Of a stretch of 64,000 nt of DNA, positions 20,211-39,344 are shown one piece after another. The DNA comes from Escherichia phage 241. The first letter of the stretch is position 1. Each line of letters starts with the position of its first letter. The stretch lies in the sequence record OR924452. One strand, written 5' to 3'. The notes under the pieces were generated by a model, which searched no databases, was not told where the DNA came from, and worked only from the letters and a program-made list of their open reading frames with translations. The position numbers and the translations under genes were made by a program.

Positions 20211-20234
20211 ATGAAAAAGAGGCCGAAGCCTCTT
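20211..20234 (-). terminator. rho-independent terminator (AGAGGC-uucg-GCCUCU + UUUUU on minus strand)
   Basis: Stem-loop with U-run directly after stop of 20234..20455. Confidence 0.45.
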
Positions 20235-20455
20235 TAATCGTCATATTTGCCTGTCCTGAAATTCCATTTCCTGGCCTTGGATAGGTCAAGATCTTTGAAT
20301 ATATTACCGAAGATCTTTTTAAACCCTGACTCTTCTTCAAGATCTTTCGGTCTCTTGACAGGTTCTTGAACCATACCGCCTTCGGGTTTCCCCACATCAG
20401 CGGTAGTGGTGGCCGGAGCCGAAGAGTCTTCTAGGTAATCCTGGAAGCTCTTCAT
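20234..20455 (-). CDS. hypothetical protein (73 aa)
   Basis: ORF. Confidence 0.35.
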   Translation of the reverse strand: MKSFQDYLEDSSAPATTTADVGKPEGGMVQEPVKRPKDLEEESGFKKIFGNIFKDLDLSKARKWNFRTGKYDD

Positions 20456-26844: not shown

Positions 26845-26870
26845 ATAGAAAAAGCCTCCAAAAGGAGGCT
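26845..26870 (-). terminator. rho-independent terminator (AGCCUCC-uuuu-GGAGGCU + U-run)
   Basis: Perfect 7-bp stem after stop of 26881..27234. Confidence 0.45.
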
Positions 26871-26880
26871 TTAATCAGGT

Positions 26881-35635: not shown

Positions 35636-35695
35636 AACAATACCTGTTGTCAAAGGGATAACAGGGGGAATTATATCCCCCTTTGTTTTATTGAA

Positions 35696-38692
35696 TCAAC
35701 CTTTCTTGCCCATCATGGACAACAGATTAACTCGACGTTTGTGAGACCAACCAACCACGTCTAGAATAGACTGAATCGGCTCTATGAAGGTCTTTTCAAA
35801 CGTGGTGTGGTAATCTACCCACTTATCCAGCCCCAACTCCGGAGGGAGGAAGTCAGGGAAGGCTATGCGGTCGTTCCCCACAGGGTTCCCAGGTTTCAGG
35901 TTAATGATTTTAACCTTATCGCCAGATTCTATCGGCGGGAGACCGAGGTCTTCATGCTTGTCTATCAGCTTGTTGTACATAATACAAGCCTTGGCAGCAA
36001 AGTGTGTGCCACTGATATAATTTCCGTTGCCGTCTAACCACTTCTCAATATCACTAACGCCAGAGGCTTGAGCAATATCATCCACGGTTAATTCCATATA
36101 TTCCTTCTTATAACCCGCGATCAATTCCTGAACTTCAGCCTCCGTCCCCAGAAGAACTTTCTCATAGCATTTAACCAGACGCTCACGACACCATTCCGGC
36201 GTTGTAGATTTACGCGCTTCCAGACCTTTGAATTTTATCTTTGGCTTCTCATACTTGATGCCTTCGCTATCGTATACCGCCATGCAATACATCTTCTTGG
36301 CTCGCCATACAGCAGACGATGCGATGACCTCACGTTCCCAGACCATGCGCTGCTCAAACCCGTTCATGGTATTACATAACAACTGCGCCCATTCGCTGGT
36401 TTTTGGCTGGTAATTCTCTTTGATCCATTGGTCAATGTTATCAACGAGTTTGTGATGGTCCTTTTCTTCAGGCCACAATTGCTTGACCAGGCGTTCAATG
36501 CAAATGTAGTTGGAGTCAGTATCACCCGCGATAACAAAATCCTGACCAGTAGTGCCGCAAAGTTTGTTCAGATAATCATCGGTGTGGCGTTTGTTCCATT
36601 TGTTGATCAGCTGGCCGGAAGTGGTGATTGCTTCAGCGATGTTGATGTTGAAGTATTCTTTAAACCAGACGTTGGAGATTGCGCCATAACCTGCGTTCAT
36701 CAAGATCTTCAGACCTTGTTGTAACGTGTCTTGAGCAACCCCCAGATCTTCCCACTTGTGCATGACTTCAGTCAGGTGATCAAGATCGATGTGCTTGTGT
36801 TCTTCATACCATTCAGGATCGTAGAAACGAGACTTCATGGCGGACTCAAGGTGGAAATCACCTTTAGACATTTCCTTACACCAACCAGCCCATTGCTCAT
36901 ACTTCAGGCCAGTTGCTTTCTCTCCTTTACGGTCAGCGTATATGCCTCGCATAATTTCGGAAAGGAAGGACATCTTCTCATTACTGAAGAACTGAACGTT
37001 CGGGGTAAACGAAACGTTATATCGGCGTAGTGTTTCAAAATGGAATTCGCCCAGCGCGACCAATTCATCAACAACTTGTATGCGTTCATCAATAGCACGC
37101 TGCAACTTGTCGTGAAGATTTTTGAGATGACGACGTTTATTCATCGGCGTTGTCATATCATTCATCGCTTTGGTCAATTCCTCACACATAGCCTCAATAA
37201 TATCACGGCGTGTGTGCTTATCAGAAACGATAGTCTCTGGACCAAGGTTGTATTGCTGTATGATGTGGGGATACAGGGAGTTTAAGTCCTCAGAGAAGAC
37301 CCAGAAATATATCCCTGGTGCAACCTCCATGACATATGCGCCTTCAAAATCTGTTGGTCCATCATAGACGCGCTGGATTTTCGGGACAATCCCCTTCTCA
37401 TAAAGACGATAATAGCACATCGCCAGCCACGGTGCTACAGTGCCGAGACCGTCTTCATAGTTGGATTTAGTGCGATAAGCCAATACAAACATCAGCTGTA
37501 TCAAACGCAGTTTTTGTTCTAAGCGCCACACCAGCTTGACGTCTTTGATACCATATCGCGTATGCTTGCAATAATCATTGAAATAAAGGTCATACAATGA
37601 TTTGCTTTCACTATAATCCAACTTCTTCTCACCGAGTTCACAATAAGCGATCCAGTCCAGTGAGTATTTTTCGCGGGTGGTGTAAGTGTGTTTCTTGTAC
37701 ACTTGCATGTAGTCCATCATTGGACAACCCACAAACTGATAAGACGTGACGTCGCCTTTACGGTCTTTGATGAAACGTTTCTTCAGTTTACCCCAAGGAC
37801 TGAGACGCTGGGCTTCGGATTCACCAAGAACCTGCGTAATTCGTTCAACCAAATAGGGACTATCGAACGTTTCAATGTTCCACCCCGTCCAACCGTCAAA
37901 TTGACGCTGCGACCAGTAGTTAAGGAATGAACGCAACAGATCCTGCTCGGTGACGAACTCCATATACTCAACCTGAAGCCCACCGATTTCAGGATCGTTC
38001 TCATCATACCTGAACTTCGCGCGATCCTTGGAACACGGCATGCCCCAGACATAGAATTTATTGGTATTCATATCTTGGAGCTGTATCAGCGTAATAGGGA
38101 ACGCCGCATTCATGTTCTGTGTGATTTTACCGTTACTGTCAATTATAGGGAATTGGTCAGTCACGTTGTTGGAAATAAAGGAACCAGGGAAATGCTCCCG
38201 AACGAAATCATGGTTGGCCAGTACTTGCTTATGGAAACGACGAACCCGCGCCTCGCTGCCTTTAAACGTGTGAGATTCAATCGTTGCGTGCGGGAATGGA
38301 CCTTTAGTCATTTCTCCGTCACGCCAACCAGCCGAGAACACTTCGATATCCACGTTGGCGATGTGGATATTTGAATAATCAGGTGTGATCATCCCAGGAA
38401 AACTATGGGCGATGAATTGATATGCATAATCCGTTTGTCCATACACCGCAGCCCCTTCGACCTCCTTGTACTCCTCAAGATAGTTGTCAGCGTCGCGCAT
38501 TGATGCAAACTTTTTAGACACCAACGGTTCGTTGAGGAGGCCAATCTTTTCAACTTTGGAATAATCAGCTGTGGGTAAATACAAGGTGGGTTCGAATTTC
38601 TTACGCAACATGCGGCGATTGCCGTTGTCGTCTGCGATACGAATCAGAAGGTCGTTACCCTGTCGGGCAACGTTCGTATAGAAAACAGTCAT
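35696..38692 (-). CDS. 43: DNA polymerase, family B (T4 gp43-like)
   Basis: N-terminus MTVFYTNVARQG parallels T4 gp43; B-family pol and exonuclease motifs (e.g. YGDTDS); start set at ATG 38692 with GGAG SD. Confidence 0.85.
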   Translation of the reverse strand: MTVFYTNVARQGNDLLIRIADDNGNRRMLRKKFEPTLYLPTADYSKVEKIGLLNEPLVSKKFASMRDADNYLEEYKEVEGAAVYGQTDYAYQFIAHSFPGMITPDYSNIHIANVDIEVFSAGWRDGEMTKGPFPHATIESHTFKGSEARVRRFHKQVLANHDFVREHFPGSFISNNVTDQFPIIDSNGKITQNMNAAFPITLIQLQDMNTNKFYVWGMPCSKDRAKFRYDENDPEIGGLQVEYMEFVTEQDLLRSFLNYWSQRQFDGWTGWNIETFDSPYLVERITQVLGESEAQRLSPWGKLKKRFIKDRKGDVTSYQFVGCPMMDYMQVYKKHTYTTREKYSLDWIAYCELGEKKLDYSESKSLYDLYFNDYCKHTRYGIKDVKLVWRLEQKLRLIQLMFVLAYRTKSNYEDGLGTVAPWLAMCYYRLYEKGIVPKIQRVYDGPTDFEGAYVMEVAPGIYFWVFSEDLNSLYPHIIQQYNLGPETIVSDKHTRRDIIEAMCEELTKAMNDMTTPMNKRRHLKNLHDKLQRAIDERIQVVDELVALGEFHFETLRRYNVSFTPNVQFFSNEKMSFLSEIMRGIYADRKGEKATGLKYEQWAGWCKEMSKGDFHLESAMKSRFYDPEWYEEHKHIDLDHLTEVMHKWEDLGVAQDTLQQGLKILMNAGYGAISNVWFKEYFNINIAEAITTSGQLINKWNKRHTDDYLNKLCGTTGQDFVIAGDTDSNYICIERLVKQLWPEEKDHHKLVDNIDQWIKENYQPKTSEWAQLLCNTMNGFEQRMVWEREVIASSAVWRAKKMYCMAVYDSEGIKYEKPKIKFKGLEARKSTTPEWCRERLVKCYEKVLLGTEAEVQELIAGYKKEYMELTVDDIAQASGVSDIEKWLDGNGNYISGTHFAAKACIMYNKLIDKHEDLGLPPIESGDKVKIINLKPGNPVGNDRIAFPDFLPPELGLDKWVDYHTTFEKTFIEPIQSILDVVGWSHKRRVNLLSMMGKKG

Positions 38693-38699
38693 TGTTTGT

Positions 38700-38740
38700 C
38701 TCCGGTTAACCGTGCCGTCAGCACGTCCCCGTAATTTAAC
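38700..38740 (-). promoter_or_regulatory. 5' leader hairpins (CGUGC-ugacg-GCACG and palindrome CGGUUAACCG) next to polymerase SD; candidate translational operator
   Basis: Hairpin lies just 5' of SD in polymerase leader, analogous to the T4 gene 43 autoregulatory operator. Confidence 0.3.
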
Positions 38741-38771
38741 CGAGGAACGTTCAATGACCAAGGAGTTTAAA

Positions 38772-39344
38772 ATGGCAATCCCCTTTGTGAGCATGATTCC
38801 AGGGGCGCTAAAGCAACTCTGGAATCTTGGGACTGATTTGGTGCAATATAAGCGGGAAATTGTTCAGGCTAAACACGATGTTAAACTGGAGGCAATAAAG
38901 TCTTCTTCAGAATGGGAACTTTCTAAGATTACCGAAGTCGGCGGATCTTGGAAAGATGAATTCTGGACAATCGTTTTGGCTGTTCCCGCTATCCTTGTTA
39001 TGATCGCTCCGGTTGTGGAACTTCTAATGTTCCCCACCGAGTATCATAAAGGGGATTTCATCAAAGCAGTAATTGATGGTATGCAAGCCCTTGAAACAGC
39101 GCCTGATTGGTATACTGCTTCGCTATTGACAGCAATTAGTGCATCATTCGGTATCAAGGGGTACAACCATTACAAAAGCAATAGCCGGAAGGCGCAAGCT
39201 GTGGATGCTCTCAAACAGTTTGGGGTCAAAGTGGTTAACAAAGATCCCACTGTTGTTACTCAGTCGGGTTCTCCCGATCTTGAGTCTGCTCCCCCAGCTG
39301 GGTCTACTGCGACCTCTGGTGCGTGGCCTGATCTGAAGAAATAA
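38772..39344 (+). CDS. membrane protein (190 aa)
   Basis: AAGGAG SD 7 nt before ATG 38772; central transmembrane helix. Confidence 0.4.
   Translation: MAIPFVSMIPGALKQLWNLGTDLVQYKREIVQAKHDVKLEAIKSSSEWELSKITEVGGSWKDEFWTIVLAVPAILVMIAPVVELLMFPTEYHKGDFIKAVIDGMQALETAPDWYTASLLTAISASFGIKGYNHYKSNSRKAQAVDALKQFGVKVVNKDPTVVTQSGSPDLESAPPAGSTATSGAWPDLKK

What the first reader, a model, noticed from the sequence alone, without database searches (positions are those of the whole stretch)
38693..38771. Candidate translational operator hairpin in the DNA polymerase leader
In the 79-nt divergent intergenic region, the polymerase mRNA leader forms CGUGC-UGACG-GCACG next to a perfect palindrome CGGUUAACCG, immediately 5' of the GGAG Shine-Dalgarno. 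T4 gp43 represses its own translation by binding a hairpin operator in this position, so autoregulation may be conserved.
Basis: partly seen in the sequence, partly recalled or inferred. Interest (0 to 1): 0.45.

Follow-up and report, generated by a model that had tools for sequence, protein, structure and literature searches.

The report
Conserved hairpin leading the phage polymerase mRNA
A 23-base element with a small hairpin sits just upstream of the DNA polymerase gene of this Vi01-like Salmonella phage and is almost unchanged across seven related phage lineages, so it is probably a control site like the one phage T4 polymerase uses to limit its own synthesis, though no binding has been tested.

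Summary
The window is a Kuttervirus (Vi01-like, Ackermannviridae) genome.

**In one sequence it is not beyond chance.**
- The fold z-score is about -1.3.
- 29% of shuffled 79-mers hold a perfect 5-bp hairpin.

**Comparison with relatives makes it real.**
- ACGUGCU[A/G]ACGG[C/U]ACGG plus GG[A/U]UAA is invariant at 15 of 17 positions across seven lineages.
- Fourfold-degenerate sites in the same lineages are saturated (1 of 49 invariant).
- The motif occurs once per genome, always upstream of the polymerase gene.
- The only stem change, in two Erwinia phages, gives G·U in the polymerase-sense RNA.
- The palindrome CGGUUAACCG is confined to Kuttervirus.

**Anatomy.**
- A conserved sigma-70-like promoter places the transcription start at the A one base before the stem. 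This is inferred, not mapped.
- The layout matches the known gene 43 operators of T4, RB69 and RB49. It has a 5-bp stem and sits 18-21 nt from the AUG. The loop is UAACG in most relatives and UGACG here.

**Verdict.** The best reading is a T4-type autogenous translational operator (confidence about 0.45). There is no covariation and no binding data. A DNA operator, or a hairpin bound by another factor, remains possible.

The parts
38711..38725 (-). RNA hairpin CGUGC-UGACG-GCACG. It has a 5-bp stem. ViennaRNA adds a U·G closing pair, giving a 6-bp stem with a GAC triloop.
   Evidence: Read. It is the minimum-free-energy structure. It is the only consensus structure of the aligned leaders. All 5 pairs are kept in 11 distinct leaders: 4 never vary and 1 shows G-C to G·U.
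38704..38726 (-). Conserved 23-nt block ACGUGCUGACGGCACGGUUAACC. It comprises the predicted +1 A, the hairpin and the linker GG[A/U]UAA(AA)[C/U]C.
   Evidence: Alignment A2. Columns are invariant from the A before the stem through GG-T-AA. The 5' flank (GGGG, GCCC, CACC, CGCC, CGGG) is variable. By comparison, only 1 of 49 fourfold-degenerate sites is invariant.
38700..38703 (-). Shine-Dalgarno GGAG of the polymerase gene, 7 nt before the AUG.
   Evidence: Annotated as a ribosome binding site in phage Matapan.
38690..38692 (-). Polymerase start codon AUG, 18 nt after the 3' end of the hairpin.
   Evidence: The N-terminus MTVFYTNV is conserved in all relatives.
38733..38738 (-). -10-like hexamer TAAATT. 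The conserved A at 38726 is the 7th base downstream, so it is the inferred transcription start.
   Evidence: The relatives carry TAAATA, TATTAT or TATAAT at the same place, 6-8 nt before the conserved A. LIMEstone1 annotates this hexamer as a -10 signal. The start site is not mapped.
38755..38760 (-). -35-like hexamer TGGTCA (TTGTCA in Serratia and Erwinia phages, L034 and Vibrio phage D506), 16 nt upstream of the -10-like hexamer. It overlaps the complement of the divergent gene's SD by one base.
   Evidence: The block ACTCCTT[G/T]GTCA[A/T]TGA is invariant. More distant relatives all have TTGACA/TATAAT promoters directly upstream of the polymerase gene.
38703..38712 (.). Perfect palindrome CGGTTAACCG. 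It is not conserved and is probably incidental.
   Evidence: 1 match against 1.08 expected. Only Kuttervirus has it.
38681..38703 (-). Second, weaker predicted hairpin. SD GGAGACA pairs with UGUUUUC of codons 3-5, with the AUG in the loop.
   Evidence: It is predicted in the Kuttervirus, Limestonevirus and Taipei-like leaders, more weakly in MAM1, and not in Bue1. Both arms are constrained for other reasons, so no covariation test is possible.
35696..38692 (-). Family B (gp43-type) DNA polymerase gene, 998 aa. It is the gene the element precedes.
   Evidence: Pfam DNA_pol_B_exo1 and DNA_pol_B. RB69 gp43 structures match at E = 2.7e-114. N-terminal identity to T4 is 26%.
38772..39344 (+). Divergent gene (190 aa, phrog_2524, unknown function) with a hydrophobic helix. 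Its SD AAGGAG lies at 38760-38765.
   Evidence: It does not look like a DNA-binding regulator. One record calls it a putative holin.

Best explanation
The element is a cis-acting RNA operator forming the 5' end of the polymerase mRNA.

**Proposed mechanism:**
1. Host RNA polymerase starts at a sigma-70-like promoter (TGGTCA, 16 nt, TAAATT), at or next to the A at 38726 (inferred).
2. The roughly 35-nt leader is therefore the hairpin ACGUGC-UGACG-GCACGG, the linker UUAACC, the SD GGAG, and 7 nt to the AUG.
3. When free polymerase accumulates, that is, polymerase not engaged on primer-template DNA, it binds the hairpin loop and the 3' linker sequence-specifically.
4. Binding occludes the adjacent SD and blocks 30S binding. 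Polymerase synthesis is then autogenously limited, as shown for gp43 of T4, RB69 and RB49 (inferred by analogy).

**Shown here:**
- the structure;
- its extreme sequence conservation;
- its uniqueness in the genome;
- its position;
- the homology of the polymerase.

**Inferred:**
- the transcription start;
- action at the RNA level;
- the identity of the binding protein.
For: 1. **Purifying selection.** 15 of 17 positions of ACGTGCTNACGGNACGG are invariant in 11 distinct leaders. They come from Kuttervirus, Limestonevirus, the Taipei/Agtre-like group, Miltonvirus, Nezavisimistyvirus and the metagenomic lineage L034. Fourfold-degenerate site identity between these lineages is 0.22-0.47, and only 1 of 49 such sites is invariant.
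2. **Single copy, specific to the polymerase gene.**
   - All 23 Ackermannviridae contigs that match the motif in IMG/VR carry it once, always upstream of the polymerase gene. The other hits lie in unrelated contexts.
   - No second copy with up to 3 mismatches exists in the 64-kb window.
3. **Asymmetric conservation, as expected for an RNA.**
   - Conservation starts at the A that lies 6-8 nt after the -10-like hexamer.
   - It includes 4 of 5 bases of the non-palindromic loop.
   - It continues 3' into GG[A/U]UAA up to the SD.
   - The 5' flank is free to vary.
4. **The one stem substitution is RNA-compatible.** GCACG to GUACG is fixed in both Erwinia phages. It keeps a G·U pair in the polymerase-sense RNA but would give C·A on the other strand.
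5. **Anatomy within the range of the three studied operators, read from their records.**
   - T4: AGCCU-AAUAACUC-GGGCU, 18 nt to the AUG.
   - RB69: AGAC-AAUAACUC-GUCU, 12 nt.
   - RB49: CUUUC-GUAAAU-GAAGG, lying 7 nt after an annotated TTGACA/TATAAT promoter.
   - Here: a 5-bp stem, 18-21 nt to the AUG, and a linker (G)AUAAC compared with AUAAAC in T4.
6. **Loop sequence.** The loop is UAACG in most relatives. Review PMC3014915 reports UAAC as the T4/RB69 and SELEX loop core, with the 3' AC or AA bases most important. The window's UGACG keeps the AC.
7. **Polymerase homology.** The polymerase is a gp43 homologue.
8. **No nearby DNA-binding regulator.** The divergent gene encodes a membrane protein.
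Against: - No compensatory base-pair change exists, so pairing itself is not proven. Invariance fits a DNA site equally well.
- The arms form a perfect inverted repeat with half-site centres 10 bp apart, at +2 to +16 of the inferred promoter. That is a classical repressor position.
- The transcription start is inferred only. No transcriptome for this phage family was found in the held literature.
- The loop has 5 nt, against 6-8 nt in the known operators. The window's variant is UGAC, not UAAC.
- Beyond UAAC and the linker, nothing aligns with the T4 or RB69 operators.
- Vibrio Ackermannviridae (polymerase about 46% identical) lack the element.
- The review states that some T4-related polymerases do not autoregulate.
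- The hairpin does not itself sequester the SD, so the model depends wholly on an untested protein.
Confidence: 0.45

Rival explanations
1. The element is an RNA hairpin at the 5' end of the early leftward transcript, recognised by a factor other than the polymerase or acting on its own. Three versions are possible:
- a sequence-specific phage or host RNA-binding protein that controls mRNA stability or translation;
- a 5'-terminal stem-loop that shields the mRNA from 5'-end-dependent RNase E/RppH decay;
- a nut/boxB-like site that loads an antitermination factor for the long early gene array downstream of the polymerase gene.
For: - The RNA-level arguments are the same as for the best explanation: asymmetric conservation, the G·U variant, and a start at the inferred +1.
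- A 5-bp stem with a pentaloop has the same format as lambda boxB (own knowledge).
- The polymerase gene heads a long run of - strand early genes reaching rIIA/rIIB and topoisomerase.
- Terminator-like hairpins lie within that run, at 26872-26851 and 20235-20216. Another hairpin follows the polymerase stop codon.
- The CBA120 paper states that no early or middle regulators are known in ViI-like phages and mentions antitermination as a possibility (PMC3184105).
- Only one unpaired base precedes the stem, which fits the requirements of a 5' stabiliser (own knowledge).
Against: - A pure stabiliser would drift by compensatory changes, but the stem and loop are invariant.
- A general antitermination or regulatory signal should recur at other early promoters, but there is one copy per genome.
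- No boxA-like sequence is in the leader, and the loop is not GNRA-like.
- The conserved block abuts the SD and stays 18-21 nt from the AUG, which points to translation.
Confidence: 0.25
2. The element is a DNA operator. The inverted repeat CGTGC-N5-GCACG, lying over the start of the polymerase promoter, would bind a dimeric phage or host transcription factor. That factor would shut off or time transcription of the polymerase gene, and perhaps of the divergent gene.
For: - The repeat is a perfect 5+5 inverted repeat with half-site centres 10 bp apart, at about +2 to +16 of the inferred promoter.
- Strict sequence invariance without covariation is what a protein-DNA site would show.
- It sits in a divergent promoter region whose promoters the CBA120 authors could not identify.
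Against: - Conservation is not symmetric. The central non-palindromic TAACG is conserved and so is the 3' flank GG[A/T]TAA, but the 5' flank is not. The bases outside the arms (A...G) are not complementary.
- The Erwinia-phage variant breaks the dyad while keeping RNA pairing.
- No regulator is encoded alongside. The divergent gene product is a membrane protein with no Pfam domain.
- A dedicated DNA-binding protein for one site per genome is less economical than autoregulation.
Confidence: 0.17
3. The element is a chance hairpin with no function, and the conservation is only a by-product of the neighbouring promoter or SD.
For: - In one sequence the hairpin and palindrome are unremarkable.
- The repeat finder lists 8 other inverted repeats within 600 nt.
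Against: - 15 of 17 positions are invariant while the -10 element, the discriminator and the spacing to the SD all vary, and neutral sites are saturated.
- Vibrio relatives keep the promoter and SD without the block, so neither of those explains it.
Confidence: 0.02

Closest known systems
Phage T4 gene 43 translational operator (autogenous repression by gp43 DNA polymerase)
   Same: - It lies in the leader of an orthologous family B polymerase gene.
- It has a 5-bp stem.
- The 3' end of the hairpin is 18 nt from the AUG.
- The SD follows 7 nt after the hairpin.
- The linker is A-rich: AUAAAC in T4, (G)AUAAC or (G)UUAAC here.
- UAAC is in the loop of most Ackermannviridae relatives.
   Different: - The loop has 5 nt (UAACG or UGACG) against 8 nt (AAUAACUC).
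- The stem sequence is unrelated and G+C-rich.
- The window itself has UGAC.
- T4 gene 43 follows regA on the same strand, whereas here the polymerase gene heads a divergent unit.
- Binding and repression are not demonstrated here.
RB69 and RB49 gene 43 operators
   Same: - They show how far proven operators diverge. RB69 has a 4-bp stem 12 nt from the AUG. RB49 has a 6-nt loop GUAAAU and its 3' arm is the SD.
- In RB49 an annotated TTGACA/TATAAT promoter ends 7 nt before the hairpin, so the hairpin sits at the 5' end of the mRNA, as inferred here.
   Different: - In RB49 the hairpin contains the SD and in RB69 it abuts it. Here a conserved linker of 7-10 nt intervenes.
- There is no sequence similarity beyond the UAA(C/A) loop core.
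Lambda/P22 nut boxB hairpins (N-dependent antitermination)
   Same: It is a 15-nt hairpin with a 5-bp stem and a pentaloop, close to an early promoter, at the head of a long early gene array (own knowledge).
   Different: - The loop is not purine-rich or GNRA-like.
- There is no boxA.
- There is one copy per genome rather than one per early operon.
- It lies directly next to an SD.
- No N-like protein is known in this family.
5'-terminal stabilising stem-loops (E. coli ompA type)
   Same: The hairpin begins one base after the inferred 5' end, which is the geometry that protects against 5'-end-dependent decay (own knowledge).
   Different: Such stabilisers work through structure, not sequence. 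Here the stem and loop sequences are invariant, which implies sequence-specific recognition.

Membership tests
T4-type gp43 autogenous translational operator | Located in the 5' leader of a gp43-type (family B) phage DNA polymerase gene, within about 40 nt of the AUG | tested here: met
   The hairpin spans -33 to -19 relative to the AUG. The polymerase matches Pfam DNA_pol_B and RB69 gp43 at E = 2.7e-114.
T4-type gp43 autogenous translational operator | Short hairpin with a 4-5 bp stem upstream of the SD | tested here: met
   The 5-bp stem is the minimum-free-energy structure and the alignment consensus. T4 has 5 bp, RB69 4 bp and RB49 5 bp.
T4-type gp43 autogenous translational operator | Loop carrying UAAC or UAAA, with the 3' AC or AA bases important for binding (PMC3014915) | tested here: inconclusive
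   The loop is UAACG in Limestone, Taipei/Agtre-like, Milton, Nezavisimisty, L034 and part of Kuttervirus. The window and its subgroup have UGACG, which keeps the AC. The loop has 5 nt rather than 6-8 nt.
T4-type gp43 autogenous translational operator | Operator extends from the hairpin into or up to the ribosome binding site | tested here: met
   The conserved block runs from the hairpin through GG[A/U]UAA(AA)[C/U]C and ends at the SD. A protein footprint is not testable here.
T4-type gp43 autogenous translational operator | The polymerase binds the RNA specifically and represses its own translation | not testable with these tools
   This needs a gel shift or filter binding, toeprinting, and reporter fusions with polymerase supplied in trans.
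T4-type gp43 autogenous translational operator | Base pairing, rather than sequence alone, maintained in evolution | tested here: inconclusive
   There are 0 compensatory changes. 4 of 5 pairs never vary and 1 pair shows G-C to G·U.
Palindromic DNA operator of a dimeric transcription factor | Inverted-repeat half-sites about one helical turn apart, overlapping a promoter | tested here: met
   In CGTGC-N5-GCACG the half-site centres are 10 bp apart, at +2 to +16 of the inferred promoter.
Palindromic DNA operator of a dimeric transcription factor | Conservation symmetric about the dyad, with a free central spacer | tested here: not met
   The central TAACG is conserved at 4 of 5 positions. The 3' flank is conserved and the 5' flank is not. 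The Erwinia-phage variant breaks the dyad.
Lambda-type nut site (boxA + boxB) | BoxA element plus a GNRA-like pentaloop hairpin, present at each early operon | tested here: not met
   No boxA-like sequence is in the leader and the loop is UGACG/UAACG. There is one copy per genome.
Intrinsic terminator | G+C-rich hairpin followed by a run of U | tested here: not met
   The hairpin is followed by GUUAACCGGAG on the - strand and by TCCCCGTAA on the + strand. The scan did not report it.

The most novel reading that the evidence does not exclude
The invariant 5'-terminal hairpin may not be a polymerase operator. It may instead be the recognition site of a so far unknown phage factor that controls the leftward early transcription unit, for example by antitermination, or by RNA stabilisation or processing. 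That would give the first handle on early or middle gene regulation in Ackermannviridae. This family has no homologues of MotA, AsiA, Alt/ModA or RegA/RegB and no identified early promoters (PMC3184105).
Probability: 0.15. Interest if true: 0.65.

Novelty: new member of a known kind. Interest (0 to 1): 0.45.

Why it matters
- **Reach of the mechanism.** Autogenous translational control of a replicative polymerase is known only from T4, RB69 and RB49 (Straboviridae). The T4 case is the RNA-protein pair used in the first SELEX experiment. If the Ackermannviridae element is such an operator, the mechanism extends to a second phage family whose polymerase is only about 26% identical to T4 gp43 in the N-terminal 300 residues.
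- **A useful natural variant.** It offers a pentaloop with a UAAC or UGAC core, which could help work out how gp43-type polymerases recognise RNA. No polymerase-RNA complex structure existed as of the 2010 review (PMC3014915).
- **Value regardless of mechanism.** The analysis identifies one of the first well-supported early promoters in Vi01-like phages. It also identifies a strikingly conserved non-coding element next to the polymerase gene. Several of these phages are used for biocontrol and their gene regulation is essentially unknown.

Tried and rejected
- **Thermodynamic significance.** Not significant for the single sequence. It was dropped as a criterion after the proven T4, RB69 and RB49 operators scored no better.
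- **The palindrome CGGUUAACCG as a functional part.** Rejected. It is expected by chance and absent outside Kuttervirus.
- **Covariation test.** It has no power, because the stem is invariant.
- **Search for more divergent carriers of the element.**
  - A polymerase-profile scan of IMG/VR and a metagenome scan found no intermediate lineages.
  - Vibrio and more distant relatives have the promoter but no such hairpin.
- **Rfam.** No family matches.
- **Terminator.** No U-run follows the hairpin.
- **Replication origin.** GC skew follows gene orientation, with its minimum near 50 kb, not at 38.7 kb.
- **Long-range pairing GGUCAUUG/CAAUGACU.**
  - It appears in the 92-nt fold.
  - It lies upstream of the inferred start and is not conserved in MAM1, so it was rejected.
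- **ATG 38754 as the start of the divergent gene.** Rejected.
- **Divergent gene as a DNA-binding regulator.** Rejected, because it encodes a membrane protein with no known domain.
- **LIMEstone1 'putative late promoter' label for the -10 element.** I read it instead as the -10 of a sigma-70-type promoter, because a conserved TTGTCA/TGGTCA lies 16-17 nt upstream.
- **Literature.**
  - No transcriptome, mapped start site or described polymerase operator for Ackermannviridae was found in the held library.
  - Petrov & Karam 2002 was not available.
  - Two searches were too loose and returned nothing useful.

Full report
**Identity of the window**

- The region is 99.6-99.7% identical to Salmonella phages of the genus Kuttervirus (Vi01, Mooltan, Matapan; Ackermannviridae).
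- The long - strand ORF is a 998-aa family B polymerase starting at AUG 38692-38690.
  - Its closest solved relatives are RB69 and T4 gp43, at E = 2.7e-114.
  - Its first 300 residues are about 26% identical to T4 gp43.
- The polymerase gene heads a long run of - strand genes (thymidine-modification enzyme, rIIA/rIIB, topoisomerase).
- It is transcribed divergently from a short + strand cluster.

**The observation**

On the polymerase-sense strand the leader reads as follows:

...UUAAAUUACGGGG-A-CGUGC-UGACG-GCACG-GUUAACC-GGAG-ACAAACA-AUG

- The palindrome CGGUUAACCG (38712-38703) overlaps the 3' arm and the SD.
- The 79-nt spacer is correct, because the divergent gene starts at 38772.
  - The upstream in-frame ATG at 38754, used in several GenBank records, runs into a stop codon in the metagenomic relative L034.
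  - That ATG is missing in Limestonevirus.
- As a single sequence the feature is not beyond chance.
  - Fold z-scores are -1.3 to -1.4.
  - 29% of shuffled 79-mers hold a perfect 5-bp hairpin, and 4.4% hold one with at least 4 G-C pairs.
  - The window holds 505 such hairpins and 55 perfect 10-nt palindromes.

**Comparative evidence**

I collected polymerase-upstream regions from three sources:
- IMG/VR;
- a metagenome scan;
- GenBank phages: LIMEstone1, Bue1, phiEa2809, phiMAM1 and Vibrio phage D506.

Eleven distinct leaders from seven lineages align into two conserved blocks separated by variable sequence.

- **Block 1** is ACTCCTT[G/T]GTCA[A/T]TGA.
- **Block 2** is ACGTGCT[A/G]ACGG[C/T]ACGG[A/T]TAA(AA)[C/T]C, which ends at the SD.
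- Within the 17-mer that holds the hairpin, 15 positions are invariant.
- The same lineages are saturated at neutral sites.
  - Fourfold-degenerate site identity in the adjacent polymerase codons is 0.22-0.47 between genera.
  - Only 1 of 49 such sites is invariant across eight lineages.
- The two variable positions are:
  - the second loop base, A or G, polymorphic within Kuttervirus (the window has G);
  - one stem base, C to U, in both Erwinia phages. This turns a G-C pair into G·U in the polymerase-sense RNA, and would be a C·A mismatch on the other strand.
- There are no compensatory double changes, so structure is neither proven nor contradicted.

**Uniqueness**

- An exact scan of IMG/VR for ACGTGCTNACGGNACGG found 79 stretches.
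  - 23 are Ackermannviridae contigs, each with one copy, always just upstream of ...AUG-(M)(T/S)VFYTNV.
  - The others lie in unrelated sequence contexts and are presumably chance matches.
- In the 64-kb window no second copy exists with up to 3 mismatches.
- The element is therefore specific to the polymerase gene. It is not a general promoter, terminator or repeat.

**Promoter and likely 5' end (inference)**

- Block 1 contains the complement of the divergent gene's SD (AAGGAG) and, next to it, a -35-like hexamer.
  - It is TTGTCA in the Serratia and Erwinia phages, L034 and Vibrio D506.
  - It is TGGTCA in the Kuttervirus, Limestone and Taipei-like groups.
- Sixteen to 17 nt downstream lies an A/T-rich -10-like hexamer: TAAATT here, TAAATA, TATTAT, or TATAAT in D506.
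- The conserved A that opens block 2 follows 6-8 nt later.
- More distant T4-like relatives from metagenomes all carry textbook TTGACA-N17-TATAAT promoters directly upstream of the polymerase gene, with short leaders.
- The window's version scores 8 of 12 against the consensus and so was missed by the scan.
- The LIMEstone1 record labels the same hexamer a 'putative late promoter'.
- The CBA120 paper says early promoters could not be identified in these phages. [quoted passage not shown]
- If the inference is right, the mRNA begins pppA-CGUGC..., with the hairpin one base from the 5' end and a leader of 35-38 nt.
- The abrupt onset of conservation at that A is what an element acting in the transcript would show.

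**Comparison with known operators**

I read the three experimentally studied gene 43 leaders from their records.

| Phage | Hairpin | Distance to AUG | Note |
|---|---|---|---|
| T4 | AGCCU-AAUAACUC-GGGCU | 18 nt | SD 7 nt after the stem |
| RB69 | AGAC-AAUAACUC-GUCU | 12 nt | |
| RB49 | CUUUC-GUAAAU-GAAGG | 10 nt | 3' arm is the SD; starts 7 nt after an annotated TTGACA/TATAAT promoter |

- Review PMC3014915 makes three relevant statements.
  - UAAC is the loop core of T4 and RB69 and of the SELEX winners.
  - RB49 has UAAA, and the 3' AC or AA loop bases matter most.
  - Some T4-related polymerases do not autoregulate.
- The Ackermannviridae element falls inside this range.
  - It has a 5-bp stem.
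  - It lies 18-21 nt from the AUG.
  - A 7-10 nt A-rich linker ((G)AUAAC, against AUAAAC in T4) leads into the SD.
  - The loop is UAACG in most lineages, and the window's UGACG keeps the AC.
- The known operators are no more stable than chance either (z -0.5, 0.05 and -0.98). The weak z-score here is therefore not an argument against function.

**Weighing the mechanisms**

*For an RNA element rather than a DNA site:*
- Conservation is asymmetric. The non-palindromic loop and the 3' linker are fixed, while the 5' flank is free.
- The variant fixed in the Erwinia phages is compatible with RNA pairing but breaks the dyad.
- The neighbouring divergent gene encodes a membrane protein, not a DNA-binding regulator.

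*For the polymerase as the ligand:*
- The element is single-copy and specific to the polymerase gene.
- The polymerase is orthologous to proven autoregulators.
- The position and loop motif match.

*Against:*
- There is no covariation.
- The arms have a perfect 10-bp-spaced dyad over the inferred start, which would suit a repressor.
- The pentaloop is shorter than any known operator loop.
- Vibrio relatives lack the element.
- Nothing has been tested biochemically.

*Confidence in each reading:*

| Explanation | Confidence |
|---|---|
| T4-type autogenous operator | about 0.45 |
| 5' hairpin bound by another factor or acting on stability or antitermination | about 0.25 |
| DNA operator | about 0.17 |
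| No function | about 0.02 |

**Other checks**

- No Rfam family matches.
- There is no terminator signature.
- GC skew follows gene orientation, with its minimum near 50 kb, so it gives no origin signal here.
- The held literature contains no description of this element and no Ackermannviridae transcriptome.

**Verdict**

  - The hairpin is one of the most constrained non-coding sequences around the polymerase gene.
  - It has the anatomy of a gp43 operator.
  - The palindrome is incidental.
  - The decisive binding and repression tests remain to be done.
- I file it as a probable new member of a known kind, of moderate interest.

Noticed in passing
window 38754-38771 (+ strand): Several GenBank relatives (for example Matapan and Sa157lw) start the divergent gene at the ATG equivalent to 38754. 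That ATG is followed by a stop codon in L034 and is absent in Limestonevirus. The conserved start is ATG 38772, with SD AAGGAG at 38760-38765. The conserved TGAC[A/C]AAGGAG is better explained as the SD plus the -35 element of the opposite-strand polymerase promoter.
   Followed up: yes
window 38681-38703 (- strand): A second predicted hairpin pairs the polymerase SD (GGAGACA) with UGUUUUC of codons 3-5, leaving the AUG in the loop. It is predicted in the Kuttervirus, Limestone and Taipei-like leaders (whole-leader z -1.8 to -3.3) and is weaker or absent in MAM1 and Bue1. It could add intrinsic damping of translation, but both arms are constrained for other reasons.
   Followed up: partly
window 35663-35699 (- strand): Directly after the polymerase stop codon (35698-35696) lies the hairpin AGGGGG-AUAUAAUU-CCCCCU. 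TATAAT sits in its loop and TTGATT lies 18 nt upstream, so it is a terminator-like hairpin overlapping a promoter-like site. It recalls the hairpin-plus-TTGACA arrangement upstream of the polymerase gene in distant T4-like metagenomic relatives.
   Followed up: partly
L022 (Dickeya phage LIMEstone1) 1-1793: In LIMEstone1 the polymerase gene is interrupted. A 1434-nt polymerase CDS is followed by an HNH homing endonuclease gene (I-LimII), and two Dickeya phage records note that the coding spans could not be determined. The leader element is nevertheless intact.
   Followed up: no
window 38772-39344 (+ strand): The divergent 190-aa protein (phrog_2524, no Pfam hit) has an amphipathic N-terminus and a central hydrophobic helix (FWTIVLAVPAILVMIAPVVELLMF). 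One Dickeya phage record calls it a putative holin. The CBA120 paper says no holin had been identified for ViI-like phages.
   Followed up: partly
L025 (Vibrio phage D506) 1483-1540: The annotated polymerase start in D506 (ATG at 1540) appears to be too far downstream. GTG at 1483, preceded by AAGAGGG, restores the conserved N-terminus (...VFYTNV) shared with all relatives.
   Followed up: partly
window 26851-26872 and 20216-20235 (- strand): Two strong intrinsic-terminator-like hairpins with U-tails (AAAGCCUCC-UUUU-GGAGGCUUU and AAAGAGGC-UUCG-GCCUCUUU) lie inside the long - strand early gene array downstream of the polymerase gene. They are relevant to whether read-through or antitermination operates there.
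   Followed up: no
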